Source of the DNA: Candidatus Levybacteria bacterium RIFCSPLOWO2_02_FULL_37_18
Lineage (GTDB): Bacteria > Patescibacteriota > Microgenomatia > Levybacterales > UBA12049
Reading direction: 5' to 3'
Assembly: GCA_001784115.1 (NCBI GenBank)
Contig: MFPD01000009.1
Span: 7,520 to 71,519, forward strand
Length of the DNA: 64,000 nucleotides
A model generated the notes under the pieces. The model made no database searches. It had not been told where the DNA came from and worked only from the letters and a program-made list of their open reading frames with translations. Made by a program: the position numbers and the translations under genes. Shown one piece after another: positions 6,122-60,229 of this stretch (position 1 is its first letter; each line of letters starts with the position of its first letter).

Positions 6122-6201
6122 CGTCATCACGAGGTCGCCTGAGGCGACCGTGGTGATCTCGTAAGATTGTTTCTCCGCCAAATGGCGGATCCGCGATGAC
6201 G
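6122..6201. repeat. GTCAT-family palindromic element (gtcatcacgagg...ccgcgatgac) with an internal GC hairpin ggtcgcctgaggcgacc. It sits between convergent genes and is probably a bidirectional terminator.
   Basis: Inverted termini are visible in the sequence, and 15 or more related copies occur in this window. Confidence 0.7.
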
Positions 6202-6228
6202 CAGTTTTGAAACTCTTGGACGGTTACA

Positions 6229-7059
6229 CTATCTTGTATTTTTTCCACGCCCCTTAAGCCTGTACGTAACAGTTACCAAACCGGCGGCGGTCGCTACGAC
6301 TGCCGCAGCTACCACAGGATGATCTTTCATTACGGTCCATGCGGTTAATGCTCCAATCTCAAAGGGGTACAAGATTCCTTTCTTGTGCATTGTTTTTAAC
6401 ACTTTCTCCCAGATAATGGGCATGTTGAGTTGTATTAAAAGTTCCAGACGAACTTCTTCTTTTGTTTTAATAATCTCTGCTTGAGTCAGAGAGATTATTG
6501 GAATTGCTGCATCGGAAAACGTAACTGCGTGTATTGCCTCTGCAAACGGATGACCTACAAATTCACTGTTTTTTCGTAATGTTTTCTGTAGATGTTCACC
6601 AACTGCATGAAGTGGAGCTTGCATTGCGTTTGCACGTGCCTCGACTAATCTAAGTCCGTCTTCAAATGAGAGAGCCCCGGCAAAGACCAGAGCACTAATA
6701 AAGCCCACTCCTTGTTCTCCTGTTATGACTTCCGGAGTTTTATAGTCTATATTTTTTTCATTCAAAAAAAGACTGCCGACGTTATAAATAAATCTATTGA
6801 GATCCCGAAACAGAAGCTGTCCTTGATACTCTTTTGACTCGCTAAAAGCCATGTCGGCAAGGGGAATCTGTAAAAATCTCTCTGCCCTTTGATATATACC
6901 AAAAAATTCATGAGAACTTGCGTGTAGTGCTTTTGCTTTTTCGGTTATATCCTCGGAGCTTGGAATAATAAAACCTACCCGTTTTATTCCCCGCTCCGTA
7001 GTAACTACAAACGTTTCTGTTCTACTCGAAACAAAAGTCTCTCTTAAGCTTCGTGCCAT
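6229..7059 (-). CDS. FabD-like acyltransferase-fold protein (malonyl-CoA:ACP transacylase family) whose GHSxG nucleophile motif is replaced
   Basis: [34 protein letters not shown] aligns to FabD [33 protein letters not shown]. The catalytic Ser of GHSLG is absent (GEQGVG) and the N-terminal GQGSQ motif is degenerate. Confidence 0.4.
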   Translation of the reverse strand: [276 protein letters not shown]

Positions 7060-7120
7060 ACGTATAGTGAGAGGTATTATATAGAATCAAGGAAAATACT
7101 CAAGACTAAATTCAAAATGC

Positions 7121-7235
7121 TGGCCCTGACCCATTGTCCCCCGAGTCAGACTCGGAGTATCGTAGGCGCTGAGCCGTTTTACTTCTGAGTTCGGAAAGGG
7201 ATCAGGTAGTTCCAACTCGCTCAAAGGACCAGCAA
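7121..7235 (-). rRNA. rrf: 5S rRNA
   Basis: The reverse complement contains CCGAACTCAGAAGTAAAACGGCTCAGCGCC (the classic CCGAACTCAGAAGTGAAACG box). Its ends pair (gctggtcc...ggccagc). It lies directly downstream of the 23S. Confidence 0.7.
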
Positions 7236-7255
7236 AAACGACTTTTCTTTAGAGA

Positions 7256-7333
7256 ATGTCGTCCTGAGGAACATTGCGACGAAGGATCTTTAAAAAGATT
7301 CTTCGTTCTGCTTTTCAGAACTCAGAATGACAT
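7256..7333. repeat. GTCAT-family palindromic element (tgtcgtcctgagg...ctcagaatgaca)
   Basis: inverted termini; located in the 5S-23S spacer. Confidence 0.65.
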
Positions 7334-7535: not shown

Positions 7536-7566
<31 letters not shown>

Positions 7567-11962: not shown

Positions 11963-11993
<31 letters not shown>

Positions 11994-13437: not shown

Positions 13438-13661
13438 GATGTATCCCGTTGAATCCACTAATTTACTTTTCAAACAGACCAAAAGAAAAACCGCTTTATC
13501 GAGGACACAGTAAGACCCTGCTAGGGTTTAAAGTGAACTATTGAGTAAAATTTCATCATAAAAACGATTTATCTTTAGCTGTAACAGACATCTTACCACA
13601 GGCTAAAATAGGTGTCAAGGCCTGAAAATATTGGTAACTGTTTACACTTCTGACACGATTT

Positions 13662-13746
13662 TGTCATCCTGAGCGTAGCCGAGTCAGACTCGGCGTAGCG
13701 AAGGATCTATTCGGTAAAAGTTCTGCTTTCAGCCTCCAGAATGACA
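13662..13746. repeat. GTCAT-family palindromic element (tgtcatcctgagcgtagccgagtcagactcggc...cagaatgaca) immediately 3' of rpoD; probably a terminator
   Basis: inverted termini plus a nested hairpin gccgagtcagactcggc. Confidence 0.7.
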
Positions 13747-13859
13747 ACTCTCTATCAGAACTGTGACCTATTACACGGCAATTGCTATACCAACCCAAGA
13801 TTAAAACACTTTGCAGAACTCCTTCGGGAAGCCGTCCATACTCTTTGAAGCCTCTTCAT

Positions 13860-16909: not shown

Positions 16910-16992
16910 TGTCATTGCGAGGTCGCCTGAGGGGCGACCGAAGCAATCTCGAAAAAGAGATCGCCACGTCGCTTACGCTCCTCGCGATGACA
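16910..16992. repeat. GTCAT-family palindromic element (gtcattgcgaggtcgcctgaggggcgacc...ctcgcgatgaca)
   Basis: Inverted termini plus a GC hairpin. ORF 16839-17045 in the six-frame track is just a translation of this element. Confidence 0.7.
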
Positions 16993-21826: not shown

Positions 21827-21909
21827 CGTCATTGCGAGGAGCTTGCGACGAAGTAATCTAATCCAATTTCAGAGATTGCTTCTCCCGCTGAGCGGGATCG
21901 CAATGACAA
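21827..21909. repeat. GTCAT-family palindromic element (cgtcattgcgaggagcttgcgacgaag...cccgctgagcggg...cgcaatgaca)
   Basis: inverted termini; lies between copA and the downstream gene. Confidence 0.7.
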
Positions 21910-21915
21910 TTGCGA

Positions 21916-24393
21916 TTATATTTTAATCCTTACTCTCTTTAATTGCAATGAGTTTAAGACTACGGAGATAGAACTCATTGCCATAGCAGCTGATGCAAAA
22001 ATCGGGTTCATAAGAATATTAAAAAATGGATACAGTGCGCCCATGGCAACGGGAATAAGGATAATGTTGTATCCAAATGCCCAAAACAGATTAAGTTTTA
22101 TTGTCCACATTGTTTTTTTAGACAACTCAATTGCGGTGGCAACAGATCGCAGATCTTTATTAATTAACGTTATATCTGCCGCCTCAATTGCCACATCTGT
22201 CCCCGTCCCCATTGCAATTCCAACATCTGCTGCTGCCAAAGCCGGAGCGTCATTAATGCCATCACCTATCATCGCAACGACATGTCGTTGCTTGGAATTT
22301 CCAATTTCCAATTTCCAATTTCCAATCATCAAATTTGTTGATTTGTTGATTTGTTGATTTGACATTTGTAATTCTCTAACGATCTTTTCTTTTTCCTGAG
22401 GCAGTACTTCCGCATACACCTTTTCAATCTCCACTTGTTTTGCGATTGCTTCTGCGGTCCTTTTATTATCTCCCGTTATCATAACCGGTTCTATTCTCAT
22501 CTTTTTGAGAACCACTACTGCCTCTTTTGCAGAATCTTTAATTGTATCTGCAACCGCAATTAAACCTGCTAATTCTCCATTTACCCCTAACATCATTACT
22601 GTCTTCCCTTCGTTCTCCAATTCTTCAATCTTCAATCTTAAATCATCAATCTTTAGACTTTCTCTCTCCATCAATTTCCTATTCCCAAACACAACTTTTA
22701 ACTTTGAATTTTGAACTTTTAATTCTCCTTCCACTCCGTGTCCGGGTATGGCTTTAAATTGTGTAATTGGTTGAACTTTTATATTCTGTTCCTCTGCTTT
22801 TCTAATAATTGCTTCCGCTAAGGAATGTTCTGAACCCTTTTCTAGCGACGCAGTAATCTGTAGAATTTGATTAGTTAGTTGGTTAGTTCGTTTATCGTTC
22901 ACAGTAGATTTTTCTTTACTGTGAACTGTGAACTGTGAACTGTGAACTATATCCGTCACCTCTGGTTTCCCCTTAGTCAGCGTCCCTGTCTTATCAAAAA
23001 CCACTGTATTCACTCTATGCACAGTTTCCAAAGCCTCTGCATCTTTAATCAAAATTCCATTTTCTGCTCCTTTACCAGTCCCCACCATAATTGCCGTGGG
23101 AGTGGCTAGTCCCATGGCGCACGGACAGGCAATTATCAAAACCGCAATCATGTTTAAAAGCGCAAACAAAGGCGATCCAAAAATGTACCAAATAACAAAT
23201 GTCAAAATTGCAAGCATAATAACAATTGGAACAAAATACGAAGAAATCAAATCAGCCATCCTCTGGATGGGCGCTTTACTCCCCTGCGCTTCTTCAACCA
23301 GTTTTATTATCTGAGAGAGCATTGTATCTTTCCCAACTTTTGTAGCTTTATATAAAAACGTTCCGGACTTATTTATGGTAGCCCCAATTACCATATCCCC
23401 TTTTGCTTTATCAACAGGAATACTTTCTCCGGTTACCATTGATTCGTCAATTGAAGATTCTCCCTCGATAATCTGCCCATCAACCGGAATCTTCTCCCCC
23501 GGCCGAACCCGAATAACATCTTCCACCACAACTTCTTCGATCGGAATATCAACTTCAGCATACTTCTCGTCATTGCGAGGAATCCCGCAATGGCGGGATG
23601 ACGCGGCAATCCCATCCAATTTTAGAGATTGCTTTGCTCCGCTCGCAGTGACAGACGAGCGAAGCACTCGTGCAGTCCGCGCTTGGAGACCAATCAATTT
23701 TTTTATTGCCTCGGAAGTCCCAGCTTTTGCTTTTGCTTCAAAATATCTTCCCAAAATAATAAGACCAATAATAATTGTGGAGACATCAAAATACGGCTCT
23801 GGTTTTATTCCTATACGCTCGACTATAAATGGAAATAGCGTTACAAATGTTGAATAGAAAAATGCAACGGTTGTTCCCAAAACAACAAGCGTATCCATGT
23901 TCGCGTTTCTATGCCTTATAGCAAGAATTGTTGCCTTATAAAACATAAGACCTGCCCAAAACTGAACAGGAATCGCTAGTATTAGCTGAATATAAAAGTT
24001 TTGGAGAATTTGAGGAGATGTATTCATGATTCCAGGAAAACTCCCCCACACAATAAGCCCTCCTAAAAATAAACTGACAAACACTTTTTGCTTGAGCTTT
24101 TGAAGTTCTTTTTGTTTGTTCTCCGAATCCCCGCTCAGCGGGGCGAAGTGGGATTTTTCTTCCTCAAAATTCGCCTCATATCCAACAGACGAAATCGCTT
24201 TCGCAAGATCTTGTTCTGAAACTTCTGATTCCTGTTGAATCGTAGCTTTTCCGGTTGCCAAATTCACAACCGCACTACTTACTCCTGGAACTTTTTTAAG
24301 TGCCCTTTCTGTCACCCCCACACAACTCGCACAATGCATACCGCGCACTTGAAAAATGCGCTTTGTTAGTTTGTTAGTTCGCTCATCGTTCAT
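21916..24393 (-). CDS. copA: Cu+-exporting P1B-type ATPase carrying about five in-frame palindromic-repeat insertions
   Basis: N-terminal HMA GMHCASC. Conserved motifs: TGES, CPC ([12 protein letters not shown]), [17 protein letters not shown]. Repeat-derived inserts: TNKLT (N-terminus), [92 protein letters not shown]. Confidence 0.9.
23568..23653. repeat. GTCAT-family element inserted in-frame inside copA (between the actuator-domain KTARV and PIEEV motifs)
   Basis: cgtcattgcgaggaatcccgcaatggcgggatgacg...gctcgcagtgaca; translated as [31 protein letters not shown]. Confidence 0.75.
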
Positions 24394-31805: not shown

Positions 31806-33248
31806 TTAAAATTCTATTCCCAGCTGTTCTTTCTTTTCTGTTTCTCTTCTTGATACCTCTGATACTTTTGAATCCTTTGATATCTCTTCGTGTTTCCATA
31901 TCTTTACTTTTCCATACTCTCCGTCAAACCCGGGATCAATGACAATATCGCCTTTTCTAACTAACAGAATTCCATGGGCAATTTTACTGCCGCCAATCTT
32001 AGATATATCTTCTATTGGAACTTTTAGAAGAATCTCTATCTCAGAACCCAATTCCAAAGTTAATTGTTTATACAACCCTTTAGTTTTAACACTAAAAACA
32101 GTTGACTCTAAGCTTTCTGCAACAATCTCCAAGAGCGGGACGAGTTTTACAAACGGCGGATGATTCTTTCGTTTATCCGTATACCATTTTATCTCCCTCG
32201 GGCTGATTTTTACTTCGAGCCTGTCGAGAAGTTCTTTATCGCATAACTGTTGAACGCGAAATAGAACTCCTTCTGTTAATCTTCTCTTGCAAATAGGACA
32301 TATATCTCCTTCTTTTTTTAATTCCTCCGGCCCTCTGACTACCCCGCAATTCCTATGTCCGGAAAAATGATATTTCCCTTCCTCGGGATAGAATTCAACT
32401 GTGTATTTAATCCTATTGTCATTGCGAGGAGCTTGCGACGTGGCAATCCCCTCTGGATTAGATTGCTTCGCTCCGCTCGCAATGACGGGGCGCTGAACTT
32501 TCTTTCTCATTATCGCTCTTCTGATATTTTCATAACTTGCTTCTGCAAGTTCAAATACCGTTGCCTCACGCCCCATTTTGGGTAATGAATGTGCATCAGA
32601 AAAGGATAGGATCGAACGATTCATAAGCTCTGGAATCTGCCAGTTCATTTCCGGATCCGATGAAAGCCCTGTCTCGATTCCATAAATACATGGAGTAAGG
32701 TCTTCGAATGCTTCTTCCAATGAATCATAACCAGAAGCCGATCCATAAATCCCAAAGTGAGGCGTCCAGGCATGACAGGGAATAAGCATACACCGCTCGT
32801 CTATTTCTAAGATCAATTGAAAAAGATTTTTTGAGGAAATACCAATTATCGGCCTTCCGTCAGCAGATAAATTTGCTCCTCGTTTTAATAATTCTTTTTG
32901 GATTTTTTCTGCTATTTCTAAATTCGGCGCGAAAACCAAATTATGAATTCTTCTTAGCTTCCCTTTTTCAGAATAAATCGAACTTATTTCTGTAGATAAA
33001 ATAAACAACGGTTCTTTTGTTTCGGATTTCGGATTTCGGATTTCGGATTTGAGGCAATAGAGTCCTTCTGTTGCCTCCTCCAACTGAGCTCGTATTTCCT
33101 TAAGCCAAAGAGTATGCGTCCAATCGCTTGCCGTTAAAATATCGAGTCCTTTTTGCTGAGCAGCTTTGGCCATTTGGGGAAGATCCATGTCTTTTGATAC
33201 AGCACGGGAATATTTGGAGTGTAAGTGGAAATCTGCAACGTAATCCAT
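31806..33248 (-). CDS. PHP-domain (polymerase/histidinol-phosphatase fold) protein with two in-frame repeat insertions
   Basis: N-terminal DFHLHSKYS. LKSEIRNPKSETK is encoded by the (TTCGGA)n repeat at 33020-33050. VIASGAKQSNPEGIATSQAPRNDNR is encoded by the GTCAT element at 32419-32487. Confidence 0.65.
   Translation of the reverse strand: MDYVADFHLHSKYSRAVSKDMDLPQMAKAAQQKGLDILTASDWTHTLWLKEIRAQLEEATEGLYCLKSEIRNPKSETKEPLFILSTEISSIYSEKGKLRRIHNLVFAPNLEIAEKIQKELLKRGANLSADGRPIIGISSKNLFQLILEIDERCMLIPCHAWTPHFGIYGSASGYDSLEEAFEDLTPCIYGIETGLSSDPEMNWQIPELMNRSILSFSDAHSLPKMGREATVFELAEASYENIRRAIMRKKVQRPVIASGAKQSNPEGIATSQAPRNDNRIKYTVEFYPEEGKYHFSGHRNCGVVRGPEELKKEGDICPICKRRLTEGVLFRVQQLCDKELLDRLEVKISPREIKWYTDKRKNHPPFVKLVPLLEIVAESLESTVFSVKTKGLYKQLTLELGSEIEILLKVPIEDISKIGGSKIAHGILLVRKGDIVIDPGFDGEYGKVKIWKHEEISKDSKVSEVSRRETEKKEQLGIEF
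32419..32487. repeat. GTCAT-family element inserted in-frame in the PHP-domain gene
   Basis: gtcattgcgaggagcttgcgacgtggcaatcc...cgctccgctcgcaatgac. Confidence 0.75.
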
Positions 33249-34072: not shown

Positions 34073-34155
34073 TGTCATGCTGAATTTATTTCACCGAGTC
34101 AGACTCGGTTTCAGCATCTCCATTTTATAGATTCTGAATCAAGTTCAGAATGACA
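34073..34155. repeat. GTCAT-family composite palindromic element (gtcatgctgaa...ccgagtcagactcgg...ttcagcatc...ttcagaatgacat)
   Basis: nested hairpins, intergenic. Confidence 0.65.
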
Positions 34156-39360: not shown

Positions 39361-40389
39361 TCATTGAATAATAATCAACTCTTTCAAAACCTTCGGAATC
39401 TCGTCGCAGAGATCAGAAGCATTAAAATAGGGACCGACTTTTCTAAACAAGTTGTCTCCGGCTTTTTTGTTGATAAAACTCCCTGCCTTGGCAGCCAAAA
39501 ATACATCATTTTTACAACTCAAGGCTGCAACAAGACCAGCGAGTACATCTCCCGTACCTCCTTTGGTCATCCCCGCATTCCCCCCTGCTACTTCTACACA
39601 CTCCGTTGGCGAACATACAACATCCTTTTCCCCTTTGAATAAAATCACGCAATTATATTCTCTTGCTACTCTACTTACGATGTCGTTGCGAGAGCGGACT
39701 GAACGAAGTGAAGGAGCTCGCCTGCTTGACAGGCATGTGGGCGAGGCAATCTCTTTTTTGTCATTCCGAACTTGATTCAGAATCTCCTGAGATTGCTTCG
39801 CCAAGTACCGTATGGTACCTGGCTTCGCGGAGTTTACACTGAGCTTGTCGAACGTGCTCGCAATGACAATGTCGAACAAGTTCTCAAACTCTTTATCATG
39901 AGGAGTAACAATGGCATTTCCATGCAACTGTTTTAGCCACTCAGGATCCATAGTCTGAAGTGAACCCGCATCGATAACCCATTTTTTATTGGGAAATTTT
40001 TCAAGAAGTCTGTGGGTCAATTCTCTGGTTGGTTCTTCATCTTGGCTTTTTCCATCTTCTCTTGTAAGTCCGGGACCAATTAAAACCGCGTCAGATTGTT
40101 TTATGTATTCTTCAACATTTTCTCTCGGAACTACAATGCAATCAAAAAACTGTTCTTTGAGTTTTTGAGCAATTGCATTATTTTCCTCAACTGATGAATA
40201 AAAAACCATGTCAACAATTCGGGAAGCTATTTTCAATGCCCATAATGATGCCCCGTGGAATAAGTGAGAACCGCCTATAATTGTCAGCTTACCACTCATC
40301 CCCTTGTGAGAATCAGGAGGCGGAATATAGAGATTCTTTAATTCTTCTGGATTAAACTGTTTCGTATGAAATTTAATTTTTAGATTCAT
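39361..40389 (-). CDS. nnr: NAD(P)H-hydrate dehydratase (YjeF C-terminal / Nnr2 family) with a ~190-bp in-frame composite repeat insertion
   Basis: GGTGDVLAGLVAALS motif. The insert ...AKPGTIRYLAKQSQEILNQVRNDKKEIASPTCLSSRRAPSLRSVRSRNDIVSR is encoded by 39682-39869. Confidence 0.7.
   Translation of the reverse strand: MNLKIKFHTKQFNPEELKNLYIPPPDSHKGMSGKLTIIGGSHLFHGASLWALKIASRIVDMVFYSSVEENNAIAQKLKEQFFDCIVVPRENVEEYIKQSDAVLIGPGLTREDGKSQDEEPTRELTHRLLEKFPNKKWVIDAGSLQTMDPEWLKQLHGNAIVTPHDKEFENLFDIVIASTFDKLSVNSAKPGTIRYLAKQSQEILNQVRNDKKEIASPTCLSSRRAPSLRSVRSRNDIVSRVAREYNCVILFKGEKDVVCSPTECVEVAGGNAGMTKGGTGDVLAGLVAALSCKNDVFLAAKAGSFINKKAGDNLFRKVGPYFNASDLCDEIPKVLKELIIIQ
39682..39869. repeat. composite GTCAT-family, CCTGCTTGACAGGCA-palindrome and GTCATTCCGAACTTGATTCAGAATC element, in-frame inside nnr
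   Basis: Termini tgtcgttgcgag...ctcgcaatgaca with nested hairpins. Confidence 0.7.
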
Positions 40390-43274: not shown

Positions 43275-44435
43275 TTCAATAAAATTTTTAATTTCCTTCT
43301 TAAACCGCTCTTTGGAGAATTTTTGAGCTTGTTTTTTGCATGCAGCAGTCATGCTTCGATGATTCGAATCATCGAAGTGTTTGATTGCGCTGATCAAACT
43401 TTCCTCCGTGAGCTCGTCAAAAAACACTCCTGTCTTATCCTCTACTACCGACTCCAAAAGCCCACCTCCTCTGTACGCAATCACAGGAGTACCCACACTC
43501 ATTGCTTCAACCGGCGTAATACCAAAATCTTCATCAGTCGCAGCAAAAATATACGCTTTCGAGTTTTTCATAAGCTCAAACTTCTCTTCATCCGTTACCT
43601 CCCCAAGAAACTCGATATTGTCCAAACGAAGTCGAGAAGTGTCATTCTGAACTTGTTTCAGAATCTGCTCGTATCCAGCGAATCCTTTTCCAAAAATTTT
43701 TAAAGGAACACCTAATTCGCCACAGGCTTTTATAATTAGGTCAATATGTTTCGGCCGCGCCAACCTACCGCCGGCGAGAAAATAGGCATTAGGTATTAGG
43801 TATTTCGTATTAGGTATTTTTTTGTTCTTTTCCTTAATACTTAATACTTTATACTTAATACTTTCCGTGTCGACTGGCGGATATATTACTGTCGAATCAC
43901 GGTTATAGAGCTTTTTTATCCGTGACGCTACCTCCCTCGAGTTGGCGATAAAATAATCTACATTTTCACTGCTCTCAACATCAACTCTCCGTAAAAATTG
44001 ATTAAGAACCGTTCCCAGTATGTTAAATAGCGGGTTTTTCTTCCATTCTCTGGCAGTTTCATATCCATATAAATACCTCGGCGGCGTATGACAATAGCAG
44101 GCCTGCAGAGCAAACTTCTTGTCAATCATATTAGGAGAATAAGCTCCTGTGGCTGAAACTATTACAACGTCATATTCGGAAAAGTCAAAGGATTTAAAAA
44201 GTAAGGGACTTAAGAGACGCAAGGGACTTATCAATTTGTGTCTAAATGGAACCCATCTTGCCCAACTCTCCCTTATCTCCCAATTCTTGAACCTTTCTCT
44301 ATGCGGCCCTAAAAACTGAGGTAAATATACAGTTGTGTAAACCGGCGCATCGGGATACAATTCATGCAATACCTCCAACACCCTTTCTGCGCCCCCGTAC
44401 TCTTTGATGTAGTCGTGAACTAAAGCTATTCTCAT
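43260..44435 (-). CDS. GT4-family glycosyltransferase with two in-frame repeat insertions
   Basis: EDFGITPVEAMSVGTPVIAYRGGG, the GT4 EX7E region. ESIKYKVLSIKEKNKKIPNTKYLIPNA is encoded by the TAGGTATT/AATACTTA palindrome at 43780-43870. QILKQVQND is encoded by 43641-43667. Start at MRIALVHDY. Confidence 0.7.
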   Translation of the reverse strand: MRIALVHDYIKEYGGAERVLEVLHELYPDAPVYTTVYLPQFLGPHRERFKNWEIRESWARWVPFRHKLISPLRLLSPLLFKSFDFSEYDVVIVSATGAYSPNMIDKKFALQACYCHTPPRYLYGYETAREWKKNPLFNILGTVLNQFLRRVDVESSENVDYFIANSREVASRIKKLYNRDSTVIYPPVDTESIKYKVLSIKEKNKKIPNTKYLIPNAYFLAGGRLARPKHIDLIIKACGELGVPLKIFGKGFAGYEQILKQVQNDTSRLRLDNIEFLGEVTDEEKFELMKNSKAYIFAATDEDFGITPVEAMSVGTPVIAYRGGGLLESVVEDKTGVFFDELTEESLISAIKHFDDSNHRSMTAACKKQAQKFSKERFKKEIKNFIESKSA

Positions 44436-48009: not shown

Positions 48010-48107
48010 TATCAGTATTCCACAAAAAAATGGAGTTTGTCAAATGGTTTATGTCATTGTGAATGGCCTTTAGCCCTATGGCAATCTTTTATTCATCTTA
48101 GATTGCT

Positions 48108-49997
48108 TCACTTAGTTCGCAATGACGGTGAGCGGGAATTCTGTGCTTTTGCAAGAGCAAGAGCTTTTCCTTCCTTTGGCCCGATGAGTTTTATAAAGTC
48201 ATCGGATTCTATAGTTTCTCTTTTCAATAGTTCGGCGGCTAGTAAATCAAGTTTATCTCGAAGCTTTGATAAAACCGACGCTGCATTTTTATAACACATA
48301 TCAGTAATTTTTTTCACTTGCCCGTCGATTTTTGCTGCCATTTCGTCAGAAACATGCTGTTGTTCGTAATACATTCGTCTGTCAGATGCTTCCAAATTTA
48401 AAGGTCCAAGCTCACTCATACCGTATTCGACTACCATCATTCTCGCAACTTGAGAAGCTTTGGCAATATCATCGGATGCGCCTGTTGTCATTTCGGCAAA
48501 CACAAGTTGCTCTGCTGCTCTTCCGCCAAGCATAACAGCTACCTGCTCGAGTAGGTGCGTTTTAGTCTCGTGTACTCTTTCGATTTGCTCCATCATGGTA
48601 TGACCCAACGAAAGCCCCCTGCTCACAATTGAAATGCGGTGAACAGGATCAACATGAGGCATGTACCACGAAACCAACGCGTGTCCTGCCTCGTGATACG
48701 CAGTCATTTTTCTGTCCGCGTCTGATTGTAACCTCTTTTTTTCCGGACCTAATTTGACCTTTGTCGCTGCTTCTTCCAAATCTCTCATGTCGATAAACTT
48801 CTTATTGAGTCTCGCTGCTAAAATTGCAGCTTCGTTTAACATGTTTTCTAAATCAGCTCCCGAAAACCCAACAGTCCTTTTTGCAGCTTTCTCCCAATCA
48901 ACATCCGGGGCAAATGGCTTCCCTTGGGCATGAATATTCAAGATTGCTTTTCTTCCGACAACATCCGGCATATCCAAAGCAATTCTCCTGTCAAACCGTC
49001 CCGGTCGAATAAGTGCAGGATCGAGGACGTCAGGACGGTTTGTAGCTGCCATTACTATAAGTTGTTCGTTGGGGGTAAATCCATCCATTTCAACAAGAAT
49101 CTGGTTAAGCGTTTGTTCGCGCTCGTCATGTCCACCCATTAAGCCTACTCCGCGCTGTCTGCCGATTGCGTCAATTTCGTCGATAAAAATAATCGCTGGT
49201 TGAGCCTTTTTAGCGGTAGAAAAGAGGTCGCGAACCCTTGAGGCCCCGACACCTACCAACATTTCCATAAATTCAGATCCAGCCATTGAAAAAAATGTAA
49301 CTCCGGCTTCTCCTGCCGTACTGCGGGCCAAAAGGGTTTTTCCTGTTCCAGATGGGCCAATCATTAAAACTCCTTTTGGGGTTCGTGCTCCCATGGCTTT
49401 GTATTTTGCCGGATTTTTAAGAAAATCAACAATTTCTGTCAGCTCCTGTTTTGCCTCATCCACTCCTGCCACATCTGCAAACGTAACTTTTGGGCTGTCC
49501 TTGCTAAATAATTTTGCCCTCGACTGGCCAAAACTAAAAATATTTTCTTGCGCACCTCTGGCCTGCCGAAAAATAAAATAAAAAAACGCAATCATCAAAA
49601 CAACCGGCAAAATTGAAGATATAAGATTAATCCAATTCGTAACGCCTGATTCGTCTTTTACCACAACTTTGGTTTTTTCTAAAGATACTCCCGCGTCTTT
49701 AAAGAGTTGGTAGACATTAGAACCTACTTCTTTATTTGTATGAAGTGTTGCTCCCCGCTTGGTAGTAACGCTAATTTTGTTATCAACAATAGTAATCTGG
49801 GAAATCTCATCTTTTTTTACACTTTCGATTATTTCGGAAATCGGCACTGTTTTTCGATCTTCTAAAGGAGCGCTTAATCCAACCAAAAGAAAAAGGCTAA
49901 AGAGGAGTAAAAAACCGTATAATAAAATATTTTTCCAGGAGAGATTAAATTTAAACTTAACTATTTTTCGCTTATGCTTTTTCCCATTCGTAGCCAT
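48108..49997 (-). CDS. ftsH: ATP-dependent zinc metalloprotease FtsH. Its last ~7 codons are supplied by a half GTCAT element.
   Basis: Walker [15 protein letters not shown] region, HEAGHAL zinc site. The C-terminus SPSLRTK is encoded by tcaccgtcattgcgaactaag (48099-48128). Confidence 0.9.
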
Positions 49998-50008: not shown

Positions 50009-50045
50009 TGTCATTCTGAGTCATTCTGAACTTGATTCAGAATCT
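50009..50045. repeat. GTCAT-family hairpin doublet (tgtcattctgagtcattctgaacttgattcagaatc)
   Basis: seen in sequence. Confidence 0.6.
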
Positions 50046-50144
50046 AATTTTTGAATTTTGAGTTAAAATTGAGTATAGCACAACTTATATTCATTTCCAA
50101 GCATTTTTATCAAAACGTAACAGTTAACTCTTCTAACACGGTCT

Positions 50145-50228
50145 TGTCATTGCGACCCCGAGTGAATCAAGGGGGAAGCAATCTCACAAGATCGCCACGG
50201 TCGCCTGAGGCGACCTCGCGATGACAGT
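50145..50228. repeat. GTCAT-family palindromic element (tgtcattgcgacc...cggtcgcctgaggcgacc...tcgcgatgaca)
   Basis: Inverted termini and a GC hairpin identical to the copy at 6122-6201. Confidence 0.7.
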
Positions 50229-50309
50229 TTTATGTCAGAACCCTAAACAAAATTAAATACCCAAACTGACATTGCTTTTTTCTCTCAAATCTGATACTAT
50301 TATAGGCCT

Positions 50310-52689: not shown

Positions 52690-52830
52690 TTTCGTAACAG
52701 GTCACAGTTCTAACATAAAACTGTCATTCTGAGACTGAAAGCAGAAGAATCTTTTACCGAATAGATCCTTTACTACGCTCAGGATGACGAGATCGTGTCG
52801 GAAGCGTGAACAGTTACAGTTCTTAGACAA
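52690..52830. repeat. ~140-bp GTCAT-containing repeat unit (direct-repeat partner of 54765-54995)
   Basis: atcacagttctaacataaaactgtcattctgagactgaaagcagaagaatcttttaccgaatagatcctttactacgctcaggatgacgagatcgtgtcggaagcgtgaacagttac. Confidence 0.7.
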
Positions 52831-54738: not shown

Positions 54739-54764
54739 AACTCTTGATATTGTATCATAGTAAC

Positions 54765-54995
54765 AGATCACAGTTCTAACATAAAACTGTCATTCTGAGA
54801 CTGGAAACAGAAGAGTCTTTTACCGAATAGATCCTTTACTACGCCGAGTCTGACTCGGCTACGCTCAGGATGACGAGATCGTGTCGGAAGCGTGAACAGT
54901 TACAACATTGAAGTTATTGTTCGAGGCTACAAGCCGAGAACTACAAACACTGGAAACTTCTCGCTACGCCACGTCTGACGTGGCTACGCTCGAAG
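54765..54995. repeat. GTCAT-family repeat unit, a second copy of 52690-52830 with an extra nested hairpin (ccgagtctgactcgg) and a 3' extension carrying ctacgccacgtctgacgtggctacgc
   Basis: About 95% identity over the shared ~120 bp, and a 17-bp hairpin insertion. Confidence 0.7.
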
Positions 54996-55079
54996 AATAA
55001 AGTTTGTGTTAGAAGAGTAAACTGTTACGTAAATTCTTACCAAATTTTTTTAAGGTATTGTGATACAATAATAATCTTC

Positions 55080-56339: not shown

Positions 56340-57767
56340 TTACCACACCCACTCTTTTTTCATCTTACTAAACTCTCCTTCCATAATTGCTTCTCTGATT
56401 TTTTTAACCAGATGCACAATAAAATACATATTATGATAACTTGCCAACCGATATGCGAGGAGTTCGTTTGCTTTGAATACATGGTTAACATAGCCTCGCG
56501 TGAACTGCTTACACACCTTACACTCGCAGTCTTTAGAAAGCGGTTGGTTACTTCTTACATAGATACTTCTATTTATATCGAGCCGAAACCTACCTTTTGC
56601 TTCTGATTCCCATGGAGGGACAAACACAATGCCGTACCGGCCAAAGCGCGTTGGAATCACACAATCAAACGTATCCATCCCACATTCTATTGCCGAAAAA
56701 ATATCATCAATTTCTCCAATACCTAATAAATGCCTGGGTTTTTCTTCGGGAAGAAACGGATGCACCCAGGAAAGAACGTCCCGCATTTCTTTTTTCGTTT
56801 CTCCAACCGAAACTCCCCCAATTGCAATTCCATCAAACGGAAGCGAACTGATAAACTTCGCCGACTCTTCCCGAAAATCTTTGCATACACCACCTTGAAC
56901 AATACCGTAAAGCGCTTGCTCTCTTCCCGTGTCATGCCGAACTTGTTTCGGCATCTCCTCACCGGCACTAGTAGATACCGAAACGCCTTGCCTGCTGACA
57001 GGCAGGAGTTCAGGATGACAGCGATAGAATTCAGCTAGTGATCTCTCCGCCCACTTATGCGTCCGCTCCATCGCCTCTTTTGTGTATTCACGTGTAGAAG
57101 GATACGGCGCGCATTCATCAAAACACAAAATAATATCTGCTCCTAATTTTTTTTGGATTTGAATAGATAGTTCTGGAGTAAGCTCGTGTAATGAACCATC
57201 AATATGAGATCTAAAAACAACTTTGTCGTTGGTAATCTTAACAAGAGAAGGATTTTTATCTATAGAGGATTCCTGATCATTCCCAGGAGAACTGAAAGTC
57301 GGCCTTGTATTTTTCTGAGTATTTTCATCCGGTGGCCGACTTTCACTTAGTGAGGACGGGAAAAAGTTTATAATTTTTTCAAAAGGTTGCCGAACGTCTC
57401 CTGAGGCATGCGTCAGGAATCCGCCGCCCCTTGCAGCAATTCTTTTTGCCAACGAAAAGACCTGAAACCCACCGCTGTCTGTTATAGTCGGCCCATACCA
57501 ATTCATAAACTTTCCCAAACCTCCGAATTCCTGTACCACGTCTTCTCCAGGACGCAAATGCAAATGATATGTATTGCCAAAGAGTAATTCAACACCAATT
57601 TCTCTAAGTTCGTCAGGGCTTAATCCCTTTACTGTTGCCTGTGTCCCAACCGCAACAAAAGCAGGAGTCTCAATATCACCATGAGGAGTATGAATCTGAC
57701 CAACCCGCGCTTTTGTTTTAGAATCTTTTGATATAACTTTAAATGAAAATGAACTATTTTTCTTCAT
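56340..57767 (-). CDS. tgt: queuine tRNA-ribosyltransferase with two long in-frame palindromic insertions
   Basis: DSGGFQVFSL; Zn site CxCxxC...H (CECKVCKQFTRGYVNH). The ~75-aa insert ...PSSLSESRPPDENTQKNTRPTFSSPGN is encoded by the palindrome GAAAGTCGGCC...GGCCGACTTTC at 57295-57345. VSRQGVSVSTSAG is encoded by CCTTGCCTGCTGACAGGCAGG at 56993-57013. Confidence 0.8.
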   Translation of the reverse strand: MKKNSSFSFKVISKDSKTKARVGQIHTPHGDIETPAFVAVGTQATVKGLSPDELREIGVELLFGNTYHLHLRPGEDVVQEFGGLGKFMNWYGPTITDSGGFQVFSLAKRIAARGGGFLTHASGDVRQPFEKIINFFPSSLSESRPPDENTQKNTRPTFSSPGNDQESSIDKNPSLVKITNDKVVFRSHIDGSLHELTPELSIQIQKKLGADIILCFDECAPYPSTREYTKEAMERTHKWAERSLAEFYRCHPELLPVSRQGVSVSTSAGEEMPKQVRHDTGREQALYGIVQGGVCKDFREESAKFISSLPFDGIAIGGVSVGETKKEMRDVLSWVHPFLPEEKPRHLLGIGEIDDIFSAIECGMDTFDCVIPTRFGRYGIVFVPPWESEAKGRFRLDINRSIYVRSNQPLSKDCECKVCKQFTRGYVNHVFKANELLAYRLASYHNMYFIVHLVKKIREAIMEGEFSKMKKEWVW

Positions 57768-57774
57768 GCAAACT

Positions 57775-57860
57775 CTAAATTCTAAATCCTAAATTCTAAA
57801 TAATTACAAAATTCAAAAAAGTGAGTTTTGGATTTAAGAATTGTGATTTATTTAGAAATT
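57775..57860. repeat. AT-rich CTAAATTCTAAATCCTAAAT...ATTTAGAAATTAGGATTTTAG palindromic element, related to the 23S IVS copies
   Basis: Shares the ctaaatcctaaat / atttagaatttag words with 9801-9968 and 11140-11298. Confidence 0.55.
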
Positions 57861-59295
57861 AGGATTTTAGTTTAAGAACTTCGTTCTTAAACTGTTCTCC
57901 TCTCACTTTATAATTCGGGAACATGTCAAAGCTTGAACATGCCGGAGAAAGAAGTACTACGTCTCCCGGCTCTGCAATTTTAGAAGCAGTTGTCACAATC
58001 GTCTTCATATCCTTAGCTCCCTCGATCATATACTTAATATTTGATACATGATACTTAATACTTTCTTTTATCCGTGGCCATTCAAGACCAATTCCTATAA
58101 TTGCTTTTATATTTTTTTTAGAACTGATAACTCGACCAAGTTCTGTAAAGTCCGAACCTTTATGCGCTCCGCCTAAAATTAAAATCTCGGGTTCTTTAAA
58201 CGCTTCTATTGCCGCAATAGCAGTTTCCGGAGTTGTAGAAAAAGAATCGTCATAATATTTTACTCCTCCAACTTCTCCAACCAATTCCAATCGGTGTTCT
58301 AATCCCCTAAATTCTCTAAGAACACTCACTATTGCTTTTGTCGACACTCCCGCAAGTTTAGCTGCCATCACTGCCGCACATACATTTTCCCAGTTGTATT
58401 TACCAAGCAGCAAAATATCCCTAGTATCTATAATTTCGACTTCAGAAAACTCAGAAGACTCAGTGGACCGGTAATTCAGAGATGTCTGATTATCAGAATT
58501 TCTGAGCTTCTGATTTACTGATGTGCCGAGTTTTCCGAGTATTCTGAGAATAACTTTTCCATTCCTCACAAAACAACCTTCTTCACATTCTCTTTCACGA
58601 CTAACTTGATATATTCTCCCCTTTGTGTGAGTATCTGATTCGTGCGTTGCAGGATAGTCTCTATTTAAAATGGCAAAGTCATCTTTGGTTTGAAACCGAA
58701 GAATGTTTCGTTTGGAATTAACATACTCTTCGAGACTCTCGTGATAATTTTGATCTGCCAGTTCTTTCTTGTCTGGCGCCAAATGTTCTTGTGTCACCAT
58801 AAGTATTACTGCAATATGCGGGCTTTTTGTAAGGTCTTCAAGCTGGTAACTGGAGAGTTCTAACACTACTTTTGAATGAGCATTTAGTGTGTCCAAAAAT
58901 TCAAATGGAGGCCTACCAATATTACCACCTATATAAGCATCAAAGCCTTGTTTTTTACACATTTCATAGATTAAAGCAGCTGTTGTCCCCTTTCCTTTTG
59001 TTCCAGTGATACCAATAATAGGACAAGGACATAAATCAAAAAAAAGTTTGGTTTGAGAGGTAATTGCTACTTCTTTTTGTTTGGCTTGAACAATTTGGGG
59101 TAGATTTCTCTTAATTCCTGGTGATCTGATCATCATGTCATACCCCTTAAGGTTCTTCAAGTAATCTTTCCCCTGATTTTGATCAAGACCGGTAACCTCT
59201 GCACCATGTTTTTTAAGATATGCTATACTTGATAATCCCTCTATCCCCATCCCAATTACCGCAATTTTTTTATCTTTTAAGTCAATCATATTCAT
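57859..59295 (-). CDS. murD: UDP-N-acetylmuramoylalanine--D-glutamate ligase with an in-frame TCAGAA-word palindromic insertion
   Basis: GITGTKGKGTT P-loop, DSFSTTPET. The insert TSVNQKLRNSDNQTSLNYRSTESSEFSEVEIID is encoded by 58441-58555. Confidence 0.8.
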   Translation of the reverse strand: MNMIDLKDKKIAVIGMGIEGLSSIAYLKKHGAEVTGLDQNQGKDYLKNLKGYDMMIRSPGIKRNLPQIVQAKQKEVAITSQTKLFFDLCPCPIIGITGTKGKGTTAALIYEMCKKQGFDAYIGGNIGRPPFEFLDTLNAHSKVVLELSSYQLEDLTKSPHIAVILMVTQEHLAPDKKELADQNYHESLEEYVNSKRNILRFQTKDDFAILNRDYPATHESDTHTKGRIYQVSRERECEEGCFVRNGKVILRILGKLGTSVNQKLRNSDNQTSLNYRSTESSEFSEVEIIDTRDILLLGKYNWENVCAAVMAAKLAGVSTKAIVSVLREFRGLEHRLELVGEVGGVKYYDDSFSTTPETAIAAIEAFKEPEILILGGAHKGSDFTELGRVISSKKNIKAIIGIGLEWPRIKESIKYHVSNIKYMIEGAKDMKTIVTTASKIAEPGDVVLLSPACSSFDMFPNYKVRGEQFKNEVLKLKS

Positions 59296-59315
59296 ACAAC
59301 TAATATACCAGTATA

Positions 59316-60165
59316 TTAGTTGTGATCCAAATTCACAGTTTCTACCATATCAATAAACCTAGACTCTATAAGCTTCTCTGCTATTATACTAAATGTATCT
59401 TTCTCTCCTGTTATGTAGAATCGATATGATGGAATCCCTTTAGATGCAATAACCCCTTCTGCACATAGAATTCTCTTAACTTGTTGTGCAATCGCTTCCC
59501 CGCTATCTAAAGTCTCAACATTAGTACCCAAAATTTCTTGAATCTGATTTTTTATGAGCGTAAAATGAGTACAACCCAACGCTATAGCGTTGGGTTGTAC
59601 TTTTATAAAAGGCTTAAGAACTTGTTTTAAAATATTTCTAAACTTATTGCTGTTAATTTCTGCTTTTTCAATAAGAGGAACAAGTTTATCTGTACCTATG
59701 TTTATTACCTCACAATCACTCGCAAACTGCTTAATTAAGTTTTTTTGATACTCCCCACTTGCCGCTGTTCGTTTAGTAGAAAGAATACCAATTCGTTTGT
59801 TCTCTGACCTTTCAACCGCAGTTTTTATAACTGGAACTGTACCCACAATGGGAATTTTGGGAAAATCTTCACGCAGTTGGTCTAAACAAGACACTGTAAT
59901 AGTATTACAAGCCAATACAATTAGCTTACAATGTTTTTTATGAGGAATTGAACTAATCCCCCCCCCTCTTAGCTAGAAAATATATTTCTTCCTCTGATTT
60001 GCTTCCATAAGGGCAATTTTTAGAATCAGCTATATAAATTGTTGATTCATTAGGCATTTGTGAGGCTATTTCTTTCCAAATGGACAAACCGCCAACCCCT
60101 GAATCTAGTATCCCAATCGGCTGATTATTATCTATCCTTGTCATCATAAACTGTGAAATTGTCAT
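59316..60165 (-). pseudogene. murI: glutamate racemase murI interrupted by a frameshift in a C9 homopolymer (59962-59970)
   Basis: The N-terminal ORF ([14 protein letters not shown]...[18 protein letters not shown]) ends at TAG right after G9 on the coding strand. Removing one G gives continuous ...[28 protein letters not shown]..., joining the 199-aa C-terminal ORF that carries the ACNT and GCTH catalytic Cys motifs. Confidence 0.6.
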
Positions 60166-60229
60166 CCTGAACTCGTTTCAGGATCTTTTTGAGGGGAAAC
60201 GAGATGCTGAACTAAATTCAGCATGACAT
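60160..60229. repeat. GTCAT-family palindromic element (gtcatcctgaactcgtttcaggatc...gctgaactaaattcagcatgaca)
   Basis: inverted termini. Confidence 0.65.

What the first reader, a model, noticed from the sequence alone, without database searches (positions are those of the whole stretch)
6122..60229. GTCAT...ATGAC palindromic element family at terminator positions, with modular nested hairpins
At least 16 copies were found, at 6122, 7256, 13662, 16910, 21827, 23568, 32419, 34073, 39682, 43641, 48099, 50009, 50145, 52723, 54787 and 60160. They share the termini GTCATTGCGAGG / GTCATCCTGAG / GTCATTCTGAA and the reverse complements. Their interiors differ by inserted GC hairpins: GGTCGCCTGAGGCGACC (three copies), CCGAGTCAGACTCGG (four copies) and CCCGCTGAGCGGG.

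Most intergenic copies sit directly 3' of genes or between convergent genes, consistent with a terminator/REP-like role. The pair 52690-52830 and 54765-54995 is a ~95%-identical direct repeat. One copy has gained a 17-bp hairpin, which shows how the family diversifies by nesting.
Basis: seen in the sequence. Interest (0 to 1): 0.6.

Follow-up and report, generated by a model that had tools for sequence, protein, structure and literature searches.

The report
CGTC-tagged hairpin repeats colonising CPR genes
The window, from an ultra-small groundwater (CPR) bacterium, holds about 20 copies of a known kind of small hairpin repeat, the DNA partner of the Ssn single-strand nuclease, and seven copies sit in frame inside housekeeping genes.

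Summary
All 16 listed copies are at their coordinates, the terminal motifs are far above chance, and I found four more loci (20 in all).

The unit is not the whole palindrome but a single "arm". It has an unpaired (C/T)GTC tag, a hairpin that opens with A-T and T-A pairs, and a short C-tail. Arms usually come in inverted pairs with the tags outward. Arm stems covary strongly across phyla.

This is the anatomy of the "CGTC-tagged REPs" (Di Nocera 2013). These include Neisseria dRS3/NTS and Rickettsia RPE-4/-6, and are now known as Ssn-related motifs, which small GIY-YIG ssDNA nucleases bind and cut (Chenal 2025).

- Both arm flavours of the window bracket Ssn-like genes in 80 metagenome loci (49-fold and 18-fold local enrichment).
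- The published SRM search pattern finds none of the window's copies.
- The window holds no ssn, RAYT or transposase gene.

"Terminator positions" is only partly right: seven loci are in frame inside genes (CopA, Tgt, FtsH, DNA ligase, others), five lie between divergent genes and one is in the 23S-5S spacer. A RAYT is the wrong mobiliser to look for. Verdict: a new member of a known kind, notable for its host (Levybacteria-like CPR) and heavy gene colonisation.

The parts
690..715 (-). Single compact arm (GTCATCCTCGACTTGATCGAGGACGC). Intergenic.
   Evidence: Covariance-model hit, E = 0.095. Sequence read.
6123..6200 (.). Inverted dimer of degenerate type A arms with GC distal stems. Lies between convergent ORFs (835-6093 on + and 6229-7059 on -).
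7258..7331 (.). Inverted dimer (type C arm plus B-like arm) in the 23S-5S rRNA spacer.
13634..13774 (.). Composite element. Outer 22-nt inverted repeats (GTAACnGnTnACnnTTCTnACA) enclose a dimer at 13663-13745, which carries the 15-nt hairpin. Lies 3' of the sigma-70 gene and upstream of tRNA-Ala.
16911..16991 (.). Type A inverted dimer. The left arm has a GTCGCC...GGCGAC distal stem. Intergenic, upstream of the Phd/PIN toxin-antitoxin pair.
21828..21907 (.). Type A inverted dimer just 3' of copA (- strand) and 5' of the DsbD-like gene.
23569..23650 (.). Type A dimer in frame inside copA (aa 248-275, [28 protein letters not shown]).
   Evidence: It is an insertion relative to A. fulgidus CopA.
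32418..32486 (.). 69-nt type A dimer in frame inside the PHP/MJ0043_C-domain gene (aa 255-277, VIASGAKQSNPEGIATSQAPRND).
   Evidence: The NCBIfam match is split into 2 stretches.
34074..34154 (.). Type B heterodimer. The left arm loop carries CCGAGTCAGACTCGG. Lies 3' of the DNA ligase gene.
35853..35919 (.). CGTC-tagged dimer in frame inside the ATP-dependent DNA ligase gene (about aa 100-122).
   Evidence: It is not a net insertion relative to S. solfataricus ligase.
39682..39867 (.). Cluster of arms (A, B, A) in frame inside the NAD(P)HX dehydratase gene (aa 175-236).
   Evidence: It is an insertion of about 58 aa relative to TM0922.
43641..43666 (+). Single type B arm in frame inside a GT4 glycosyltransferase gene (QILKQVQND).
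   Evidence: best covariance-model hit, 40.1 bits.
48053..48126 (.). Type A dimer overlapping the 3' end of ftsH. The arm supplies the last codons and the stop (PSLRTK*).
50010..50045 (+). Single type B arm with a 10-nt tandem duplication of its tag end (GTCATTCTGA GTCATTCTGA). Lies between divergent genes.
50117..50255 (.). Composite element: outer inverted repeats plus a type A dimer at 50146-50225 with GC distal stems.
52694..52818 (.). Composite element: outer repeats plus a dimer at 52723-52788. A 113-nt stretch here is absent from two otherwise 99.96%-identical strain contigs.
54760..54904. Composite element, the near-identical sister of 52694-52818 (92% and 100% over the two ungapped blocks), with 20 extra nt (CTACG plus the 15-nt hairpin). 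Inner dimer at 54789-54874. Lies between divergent genes.
54964..55029 (.). Partial copy: a hairpin (CTACGCCACGTCTGACGTGGCTACG) plus one outer repeat.
56931..57019 (.). Type B dimer in frame inside tgt (aa 250-279, CHPELLPV...EEMPKQVRHD).
   Evidence: It is an insertion relative to Z. mobilis Tgt. A relative with 61% identity carries a B dimer at the same site.
60161..60227 (.). Type B heterodimer between divergent genes. Its left arm is the only element that fits the terminator-like pattern.

Best explanation
The elements are members of the CGTC-tagged REP superfamily, also called Ssn-related motifs. The working unit is one arm, read as single-stranded DNA. It consists of an unpaired (C/T)GTC tag, a hairpin whose first two pairs are A-T and T-A, and a short tail that starts with C. 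Arms mostly occur as inverted pairs with the tags outward.

In other genomes the same arm types bracket a roughly 97-aa single-domain GIY-YIG gene (ssn). Its characterised relatives bind the hairpin in ssDNA and cut just upstream of the tag. I therefore read the window's dimers as non-autonomous, MITE-like derivatives of arm-ssn-arm units. They would be spread and reshuffled through single-strand nicking plus host repair or replication.

Copies survive wherever they do no harm: in spacers, and inside genes when they fall in frame in tolerant surface loops or at the C-terminus. The arm has one or two stop-free frames on each strand, which makes this feasible.

What is shown:
- anatomy, excess over chance and stem covariation
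- distribution across phyla
- in-frame gene insertions
- association of both arm types with Ssn-like genes elsewhere
- one strain-level indel at an element

What is inferred:
- that an Ssn enzyme acts on these copies in this genome
- that Ssn drives transposition at all
For: **Motif excess.**

**Arm anatomy.** Tag, 8-bp stem opening with A,T, 5-nt loop and C-tail are seen.

**Covariation.** I used 30 arms. Of these, 24 were partners from other phyla, chosen by their ends only. In this set 93% of cells pair, 7 of 8 pairs show compensatory changes, and 0 of 500 shuffles reach the observed score. Slid controls give 19-55% paired.

**Heterodimers.** The two arms of one dimer differ from each other while each stays self-complementary.

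**Literature match.** The CGTC REP definition matches, including intragenic units, RPE-4/-6 and dRS3 (PMC3733652). NTS/SRM and SsnA biochemistry are described in PMC11893778.

**Association with Ssn-like genes:**
- I read four of the five Ssn-like ORFs found in arm-bearing loci, and all four are bracketed by arms.
- In 80 metagenome Ssn loci, compact arms occur at 4.2 per kb within 200 nt of the gene and at 0.087 per kb beyond 500 nt. In 24 of 69 loci there is a + arm upstream and a - arm downstream.
- The type A motif occurs at 1.71 versus 0.096 per kb, in 22 of 80 loci.

**Gene insertions.** Related Levybacteria Tgt proteins carry A- or B-dimer peptides at two hot spots.

**Strain indel.** A 113-nt indel lies at 52720-52832.
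Against: - There is no ssn gene in the 64 kb (gene tables), and I could not scan the rest of this genome.
- The one Ssn gene found in the same aquifer samples sits next to an ATPase that is 83-85% identical to Nitrospirota proteins, so it belongs to another organism.
- The published SRM search pattern matches none of the window's arms.
- Type A and C arms have longer, imperfect stems that fall outside the 8-9 bp stem / 4-5 nt loop definition. The DNA energy model prefers the long whole-dimer hairpin for them.
- Transposition by Ssn has never been shown. The authors showed nuclease activity and an effect on transformation only.
- The single strain indel ends in the outer repeats, 27-29 nt outside the tags. 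It is bounded by an 8-nt direct repeat, so simple slippage explains it equally well.
Confidence: 0.75

Rival explanations
1. GTAG-type REP/REPIN elements mobilised by a RAYT (Y1/HUH transposase).
For: The architecture of small hairpins in inverted doublets is the same as that of REPINs. REPs also sit downstream of genes (PMC3733652).
Against: The tag is (C/T)GTC, not GTAG. The window holds no RAYT or IS200-like gene. Di Nocera et al. found that no RAYT gene is flanked by CGTC units. The arm types here bracket GIY-YIG genes instead.
Confidence: 0.05
2. Locally evolved RNA elements: intrinsic terminators or mRNA-stabilising hairpins selected at gene ends, not mobile DNA.
For: Six loci follow a gene in the same direction or lie between convergent genes. 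The left arm of 60161 fits the hairpin-plus-T-run pattern. The copy at 7258 lies in a transcribed rRNA spacer. Di Nocera et al. argue that many REPs act as RNA.
Against: Seven loci are inside ORFs and six lie between divergent genes. Only one element in 44-64 kb fits the terminator pattern, and terminator-like sites are not above shuffles (21 versus 15.6 +/- 3.9). The same 26-nt sequence recurs in many phyla and in viral contigs, which local evolution does not explain. SsnA acts on ssDNA, not RNA. A secondary RNA role for some copies is not excluded.
Confidence: 0.1
3. Conventional MITEs of a DDE insertion sequence. The 125-145 nt composite (22-nt outer inverted repeats plus an inner dimer) would be the real mobile unit and would insert with an 8-bp target duplication.
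For: Four or five loci share outer inverted repeats. The 113-nt strain indel is bounded by the 8-nt direct repeat ACAGTTCT.
Against: Most loci (15 of 20) lack the outer repeats. The 8-nt repeat lies inside the outer repeat itself, so the indel does not excise a unit bounded by terminal inverted repeats. No transposase is present. Internal compensatory covariation of the arms is not expected of DDE terminal repeats.
Confidence: 0.07
4. Selected protein modules: the intragenic copies persist because the encoded peptides are useful.
For: The ORFs stay open. Tgt relatives carry inserts at the same two loops.
Against: The same DNA occurs in non-coding positions and is read in different frames and orientations. 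The inserts at the Tgt hot spots belong to unrelated repeat families in different relatives. This points to tolerant loops rather than to a selected peptide.
Confidence: 0.03

Closest known systems
CGTC-tagged REPs (Di Nocera, De Gregorio & Rocco 2013, BMC Genomics 14:522). Includes Neisseria dRS3 and Rickettsia conorii RPE-4/RPE-6.
   Same: - Unpaired CGTC/TGTC tag.
- Stem opening with A,T. The compact type B arms have an 8-bp stem and a 5-nt loop.
- Short tail.
- Inverted dimers predominate, and many are heterodimers.
- Intragenic in-frame units occur, as in R. conorii.
- No transposase gene lies next to the repeats.
   Different: - The host phylum (Patescibacteria/CPR) is not among the five phyla listed.
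- The tail is CTn/CCn rather than CCA.
- The stems are AT-rich.
- Type A and C arms have long imperfect stems with tandem G.A mismatches or variable GC distal stems.
- The intragenic share is unusually high (7 of 20 loci).
- Some copies sit inside a larger composite with 22-nt outer inverted repeats.
NTS / Ssn-related motifs with SsnA GIY-YIG ssDNA nucleases (Chenal et al. 2025, Nat Commun 16:2388)
   Same: - GTCAT tag followed by a hairpin and then ATC, compared with the NTS sequence CGTCATTCCCGCGMAVGCGGGAATCYRG.
- The same arm types bracket roughly 97-aa single-domain GIY-YIG genes in an arm-gene-arm layout.
   Different: - The published SRM regular expression finds 0 of the window's arms.
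- NTS copies are rarely intragenic (2% in N. meningitidis), against 35% of loci here.
- No ssn gene lies in the window, and cleavage was not tested.
Rickettsia palindromic elements (RPE), in-frame 'selfish DNA in protein-coding genes'
   Same: Palindromic repeats inserted in frame into housekeeping genes of a small-genome, host-dependent bacterium. By the account of PMC3733652, RPE-4/-6 belong to the CGTC superfamily.
   Different: RPE-1 elements are longer (about 100-150 bp) and unrelated in sequence. I made no direct sequence comparison with RPE-4/-6.
GTAG REPs / REPINs with RAYT transposases
   Same: Small hairpins in inverted doublets, hundreds of copies per genome, and a single-copy enzyme gene flanked by the repeats.
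   Different: The tag differs (GTAG) and so does the enzyme class (HUH/Y1 transposase rather than GIY-YIG nuclease). GTAG REPs are largely extragenic.

Membership tests
CGTC-tagged REP superfamily | Unpaired 5' tag CGTC (TGTC or CCTC also accepted). | tested here: met
   Every copy starts (C/T)GTC. Examples are CGTCAT at 6122, 21827, 23568 and 35919(-), and TGTCAT at 13662, 16910, 34073, 50145 and 60160.
CGTC-tagged REP superfamily | Stem of 8-9 bp whose first two positions are A and T, with a loop of 4-5 nt. | tested here: inconclusive
   Met by the compact type B arms: 8 bp, AT first, 5-nt loop. Type A and C arms keep the AT start but have a 5-bp perfect stem followed by imperfect or variable distal parts and longer loops.
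CGTC-tagged REP superfamily | 3-nt unpaired tail, consensus CCA. | tested here: inconclusive
   A tail is present and starts with C (CTn, sometimes CCn), but it is not CCA.
CGTC-tagged REP superfamily | Units mostly arranged in inverted dimers, often heterodimers. | tested here: met
   Fifteen of 20 loci are inverted dimers or clusters with the tags outward. The dimers at 34074 and 60161 are heterodimers. The same holds in other genomes.
CGTC-tagged REP superfamily | No dedicated transposase gene flanked by the repeats; intragenic units occur. | tested here: met
   No transposase in the window. Seven intragenic loci.
Ssn-related motif (SRM) | Matches the published degenerate search sequence HGTCWYN(0-2)YYVSBRHN(0-5)WNVSBRGN(0-2)RNCYNB. 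| tested here: not met
   Zero matches in the window on either strand. Shuffles give a mean of 0.09.
Ssn-related motif (SRM) | The motif flanks genes for single-domain GIY-YIG (cd10448) Ssn nucleases. | tested here: met
   Tested for the arm types, not for this genome. Compact arms are enriched 49-fold and the type A motif 18-fold within 200 nt of 80 Ssn-like genes, with the arm-gene-arm layout in 24 of 69 loci. The proteins carry PF01541 only and are about 97 aa long. Assignment to cd10448 itself was not testable.
Ssn-related motif (SRM) | A cognate ssn gene is present in the same genome. | not testable with these tools
   None in the window. The candidate from the same samples is Nitrospirota-like.
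Ssn-related motif (SRM) | Bound and cut as ssDNA, upstream of the tag, by the cognate enzyme. | not testable with these tools
   This needs biochemistry.
GTAG REP / REPIN-RAYT | GTAG tag, and a RAYT gene flanked by the repeats. | tested here: not met
   The tag is (C/T)GTC. No Y1 transposase in the window.
Intrinsic terminators | GC-rich hairpin followed by a T-run on the strand of the upstream gene. | tested here: not met
   Only 60164-60184 fits the pattern in 44-64 kb, and no upstream gene lies on that strand.
MITE of a DDE insertion sequence | Terminal inverted repeats plus a fixed-length target-site duplication. | tested here: inconclusive
   The plain dimers show no target duplication. 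The composites have 22-nt outer inverted repeats, and one indel is bounded by an 8-nt direct repeat that lies inside the repeat itself.

The most novel reading that the evidence does not exclude
Arm-ssn-arm units are autonomous mobile elements of a new mechanistic class: single-strand transposition driven by a GIY-YIG nuclease. The ssn-less dimers are their MITEs. This family moves between very distant hosts (CPR, Bacteroidota, Spirochaetes, Nitrospirota, Rickettsiales, phages). In reduced genomes such as this CPR bacterium, it is a major source of new peptide segments in essential proteins, possibly mobilised in trans by an enzyme from a co-resident organism or phage.
Probability: 0.25. Interest if true: 0.8.

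Novelty: new member of a known kind. Interest (0 to 1): 0.45.

Why it matters
- The family was left in 2013 as 'REPs without a transposase'. In 2025 it gained a biochemical partner (Ssn), but no demonstrated mobility.
- This window adds AT-rich and long-stem arm variants that the published search pattern misses, so current censuses undercount the family.
- It extends the family to CPR/Patescibacteria, with the same arm also seen in many other phyla and in viral contigs.
- A streamlined genome tolerates these hairpins in frame in CopA, Tgt, FtsH, DNA ligase and other proteins. This parallels the Rickettsia RPE story in an unrelated, host-dependent lineage.
- In practice, these repeats probably break CPR assemblies and create spurious 'hypothetical protein' calls.

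Tried and rejected
- **Rfam at gathering threshold.** No family covers the elements.
- **RAYT, transposase or GIY-YIG in the window.** None found.
- **Literature search by encoded peptide strings.** Nothing found.
- **Published SRM pattern.** Zero hits.
- **Strain comparison across about 20 near-identical contigs.** Only one element-related indel, so there is little power to see mobility.
- **Linking an Ssn gene to this genome.** The Ssn gene P0001 occurs in the same aquifer samples and is bracketed by near-identical type B arms. Its neighbouring ATPase is 83-85% identical to Nitrospirota proteins, so I rejected it as this organism's gene.
- **NCBIfam and PDB searches with the Ssn-like protein.** Nothing useful.
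- **Ligase copy as an insertion.** Not supported: the region aligns to S. solfataricus ligase with only a 3-aa length difference.
- **'Gain of a 17-bp hairpin'.** Rejected in favour of a 20-nt difference that is probably a loss.
- **Whole-palindrome pairing as the conserved structure.** Rejected for type B arms because heterodimers keep the arm-internal pairs, not the arm-to-arm pairs.

Full report
**Observation**

Every start coordinate in the finding carries a GTCAT- or GTCGT-tagged element. With one mismatch allowed, the three terminal motifs occur 8, 11 and 14 times. Dinucleotide shuffles give 0.19, 0.77 and 1.8, and none of 100 shuffles reaches the observed counts.

- a CGTC-tagged dimer inside the DNA ligase gene (35853-35919)
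- a dimer inside tgt (56931-57019)
- a partial copy at 54964-55029
- a single arm at 690-715

I count 20 loci in 64 kb.

**Anatomy**

The repeated unit is a single arm, not the whole palindrome.
- **Type B (compact):** (C/T)GTC-AT-nCYGAA-5 nt-TTCRGn-AT-CT. This is an unpaired tag, an 8-bp stem that opens with A and T, a 5-nt loop and a short tail.
- **Type A:** GTCATTGCGAGG...GAAGCAATCT.
- **Type C:** GTCATCCTGAG...GAAGGATCT.

Types A and C keep the tag, the AT start and the ATC end. Their stems are longer and imperfect, and their distal parts are often replaced by unrelated GC stem-loops.

Most loci are inverted pairs of arms with the tags outward. A few are single arms (690, 43641, 50010). 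One is a cluster (39682-39867).

Four or five loci sit inside a larger composite with 22-nt outer inverted repeats, GTAACnGnTnACnnTTCTnACA.

**Is the hairpin real?**

I took the arms that partner a type B arm in other genomes, choosing them only by their end motifs, and added six arms from the window. On these 30 arms:
- 93% of cells pair.
- 7 of 8 pairs show changes on both sides.
- No shuffle of 500 reaches the observed covariation.
- Sliding the partner by 1-3 columns drops pairing to 19-55%.

The two arms of one dimer often differ from each other while each stays self-complementary, for example CCTGAA/TTCAGG next to GCTGAA/TTCAGC at 60161-60227. So the local arm hairpin is what is conserved. 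ssDNA folding agrees for type B arms. For type A dimers the energy model prefers one long hairpin.

**Host and surroundings**

The window matches NCBI assemblies GCA_001783775.1 and GCA_001782445.1, and about 20 near-identical groundwater contigs. The nearest named Tgt relatives are Candidatus Levybacteria/Microgenomates at about 60% identity. The organism is therefore a CPR/Patescibacteria bacterium.

The window also holds a 23S rRNA gene with group I introns, a 5S rRNA gene, two tRNAs and ordinary housekeeping genes. It holds no RAYT, transposase or GIY-YIG gene.

**Position relative to genes**

Seven loci lie inside long ORFs that remain open:

| Gene | Residues | Note |
|---|---|---|
| CopA | aa 248-275 | insertion vs solved homologue |
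| MJ0043_C-domain protein | aa 255-277 | |
| DNA ligase | about aa 100-122 | not a net insertion |
| NAD(P)HX dehydratase | aa 175-236 | insertion vs solved homologue |
| GT4 glycosyltransferase | aa 277-285 | single arm |
| FtsH | C-terminus | the arm supplies the last codons and the stop |
| Tgt | aa 250-279 | insertion vs solved homologue |

The other 13 loci are intergenic:
- one lies between convergent genes (6123)
- five follow a gene in the same direction (690, 13634, 21828, 34074, 52694)
- one is in the 23S-5S spacer (7258)
- six lie between divergent genes (16911, 50010, 50117, 54760 with its partial neighbour 54964, and 60161)

In 44-64 kb only one element fits a hairpin-plus-T-run pattern, and terminator-like sites are not above shuffles. 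The 'terminator position' reading is therefore only partly true.

**Related proteins**

An alignment of 18 Levybacteria-type Tgt proteins (389-486 aa) shows two insertion hot spots.
- A relative with 61% identity carries a B-dimer peptide (CHPEFISGS...EMPKRVRHD) at the same site as the window.
- Another relative carries a B dimer at the first site (SFGIS...EMLKQVQHD) and an A dimer at the second (SSRAKRGDL...EIASSFTPRND).
- Others carry unrelated low-complexity inserts.

Colonisation of tolerant loops by these repeats is thus recurrent in the clade.

**Distribution**

The hits came from:
- Bacteroidota (for example Pedobacter), Treponema and Gastranaerophilales
- Saccharibacteria, Gracilibacteria, Shapirobacteria and Falkowbacteria
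- Elusimicrobiota, Ignavibacteria and Nitrospirota
- Rickettsiales, Sphingomonadales and Burkholderiaceae
- one contig binned as Nanoarchaeota

The same pattern occurs in 88 IMG/VR stretches, with up to 9 copies on one 30-kb contig. In 72 of 159 matches a partner arm of the same geometry lies inverted within 120 nt. The partner is usually of another stem type, including GC-rich canonical ones such as GTCATTGCGGGCTTGACCCGCAATC.

**Comparison with the literature**

Di Nocera et al. 2013 defined CGTC-tagged REPs as follows:
- tag CGTC/TGTC
- 8-9 bp stem starting A,T
- 4-5 nt loop
- 3-nt tail
- mostly inverted dimers, many of them heterodimers
- intragenic units
- 'no dedicated transposase'

They equated these repeats with Neisseria dRS3 and R. 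conorii RPE-4/-6.

Chenal et al. 2025 showed that the Neisseria version (NTS, CGTCATTCCCGCGMAVGCGGGAATCYRG) is bound as ssDNA by SsnA, a 94-aa single-domain GIY-YIG nuclease, and cut just upstream. They also showed that 71% of ssnA homologues have such motifs in their flanks, and that the NTS-ssnA-NTS layout looks like an insertion sequence.

The window's type B arms meet the CGTC definition. Types A and C are long-stem variants. The published SRM search pattern, however, matches none of them. The paper's main text mentions neither Patescibacteria nor Bacteroidota.

**My own test of the Ssn link**

- Among the arm-bearing loci, a 96-aa GIY-YIG ORF family turned up in five. I read four of them, and each gene is bracketed by arms: three by type B and one by type A.
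- In the reverse direction, 80 metagenome loci encoding relatives of these proteins show compact arms at 4.2 per kb within 200 nt of the gene, against 0.087 per kb beyond 500 nt.
- In 24 of 69 loci a + arm lies upstream and a - arm downstream within 150 nt.
- The type A motif shows 1.71 against 0.096 per kb, in 22 of 80 loci.

So both arm flavours of the window are Ssn-associated types, and the gene sits where the spacer of a dimer would be.

**Is there an ssn in this genome?**

This remains unknown. One Ssn gene (P0001) comes from the same aquifer samples and is flanked by type B arms nearly identical to the window's. Its neighbouring ATPase is 83-85% identical to Nitrospirota proteins, so I assign it to another organism.

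**Evidence for recent change**

The strain contigs are 99.9% or more identical to the window. The only element-related difference is a 113-nt stretch (about 52720-52832) missing from two contigs. It is bounded by the 8-nt direct repeat ACAGTTCT, which lies inside the outer repeat. This fits either insertion or slippage.

The sister copies 52694-52818 and 54760-54904 differ by 20 nt (CTACG plus a 15-nt hairpin). The diverged copy at 13634-13774 also has the 20 nt, so loss is more likely than gain.

**Mechanism**

- *Shown:* a structured, tagged ssDNA-type hairpin family, widely distributed and tied to Ssn-like genes, that tolerates in-frame residence in genes.
- *Inferred:* the dimers are non-autonomous derivatives of arm-ssn-arm units. 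They would be nicked upstream of the tag on each strand when single-stranded and copied or moved by host replication and repair. Selection then keeps only harmless copies.
- *Why in-frame residence is possible:* each arm orientation has one or two stop-free frames.

Whether Ssn actually transposes anything is untested anywhere.

**Verdict**

This is a real feature. It is a new member, with variant arms, of a known repeat kind. The interest lies in the host, the gene colonisation and the gap in the published search pattern, not in a new principle.

Noticed in passing
window 7141-7155 (inside the 5S rRNA gene, 7118-7233, - strand): The 15-nt hairpin CCGAGTC(A/T)GACTCGG, nested in the elements at 13679, 34094 and 54844, is identical to the native helix IV/loop D hairpin of this genome's 5S rRNA. 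A few flanking bases (CGTAG/CTACG) are also alike. This could be capture of a 5S fragment by template switching, or coincidence. It is unexplained.
   Followed up: partly
window 7412-13209: The 23S rRNA gene is split. There are at least two group I introns (9470-9703 and 10236-10532) and a 167-nt repeat that is 95% identical (9802-9968 and 11132-11298), both copies within the 23S region.
   Followed up: no
window 33017-33050; 9820-9929; 11150-11259; 41547-41650; 57770-57867: A second, unrelated AT-rich repeat family (AAATCC/GGATTT-type units). One copy lies in frame in the MJ0043_C-domain gene (peptide KSEIRNPKSETK). The same kind of peptide fills the Tgt insertion hot spot in several related Levybacteria (alignment A3).
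   Followed up: partly
window 22871-22948 (inside copA) and 16701-16764; also 30785-30815 and 38213-38243: A third repeat family made of GTGAACT/ACTGTGA heptamer runs plus TTAGTTAGTTGG. The copy in copA is in frame (about aa 482-507, ...[24 protein letters not shown]...). CopA therefore appears to carry two unrelated repeat-derived inserts.
   Followed up: no
window 57249-57443 (tgt aa 109-173): A second, 65-aa insertion in Tgt relative to Z. mobilis Tgt. Its DNA has degenerate arm-like stretches (GGATTCCTGACGCATGCCTCAGGAGACG, ...CCTGGGAATGATC). Relatives share a related insert (LSHVADDAR...TFSSSASGQ). It may be an older, decayed element.
   Followed up: partly
window 50010-50029: A 10-nt tandem duplication of the tag end of a single arm (GTCATTCTGA GTCATTCTGA). 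This is the region where SsnA-type enzymes are reported to cut.
   Followed up: no
L274 / L304 (same aquifer samples as the window): A 99-aa Ssn-like GIY-YIG gene lies between type B arms nearly identical to the window's, and its stop codon lies inside the downstream arm. The neighbouring ATPase points to a Nitrospirota host. Co-resident, unrelated organisms therefore share the same arm types.
   Followed up: yes
IMG/VR loci L158/L173 and L151/L161: Two viral contigs carry 8-9 copies of the type B arm in 23-30 kb. They could be vehicles for spread between phyla, or host DNA mis-called as viral.
   Followed up: no
window about 27881 and 27991: Strain-level indels of 23 nt and 9 nt in an intergenic region. 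These are the only other length differences among the near-identical contigs.
   Followed up: no
window 17020-17743; 36217-36751; 37474-38526: Toxin-antitoxin pairs (Phd/PIN and PhdYeFM/ParE) and a Fic-domain gene lie close to several elements.
   Followed up: no
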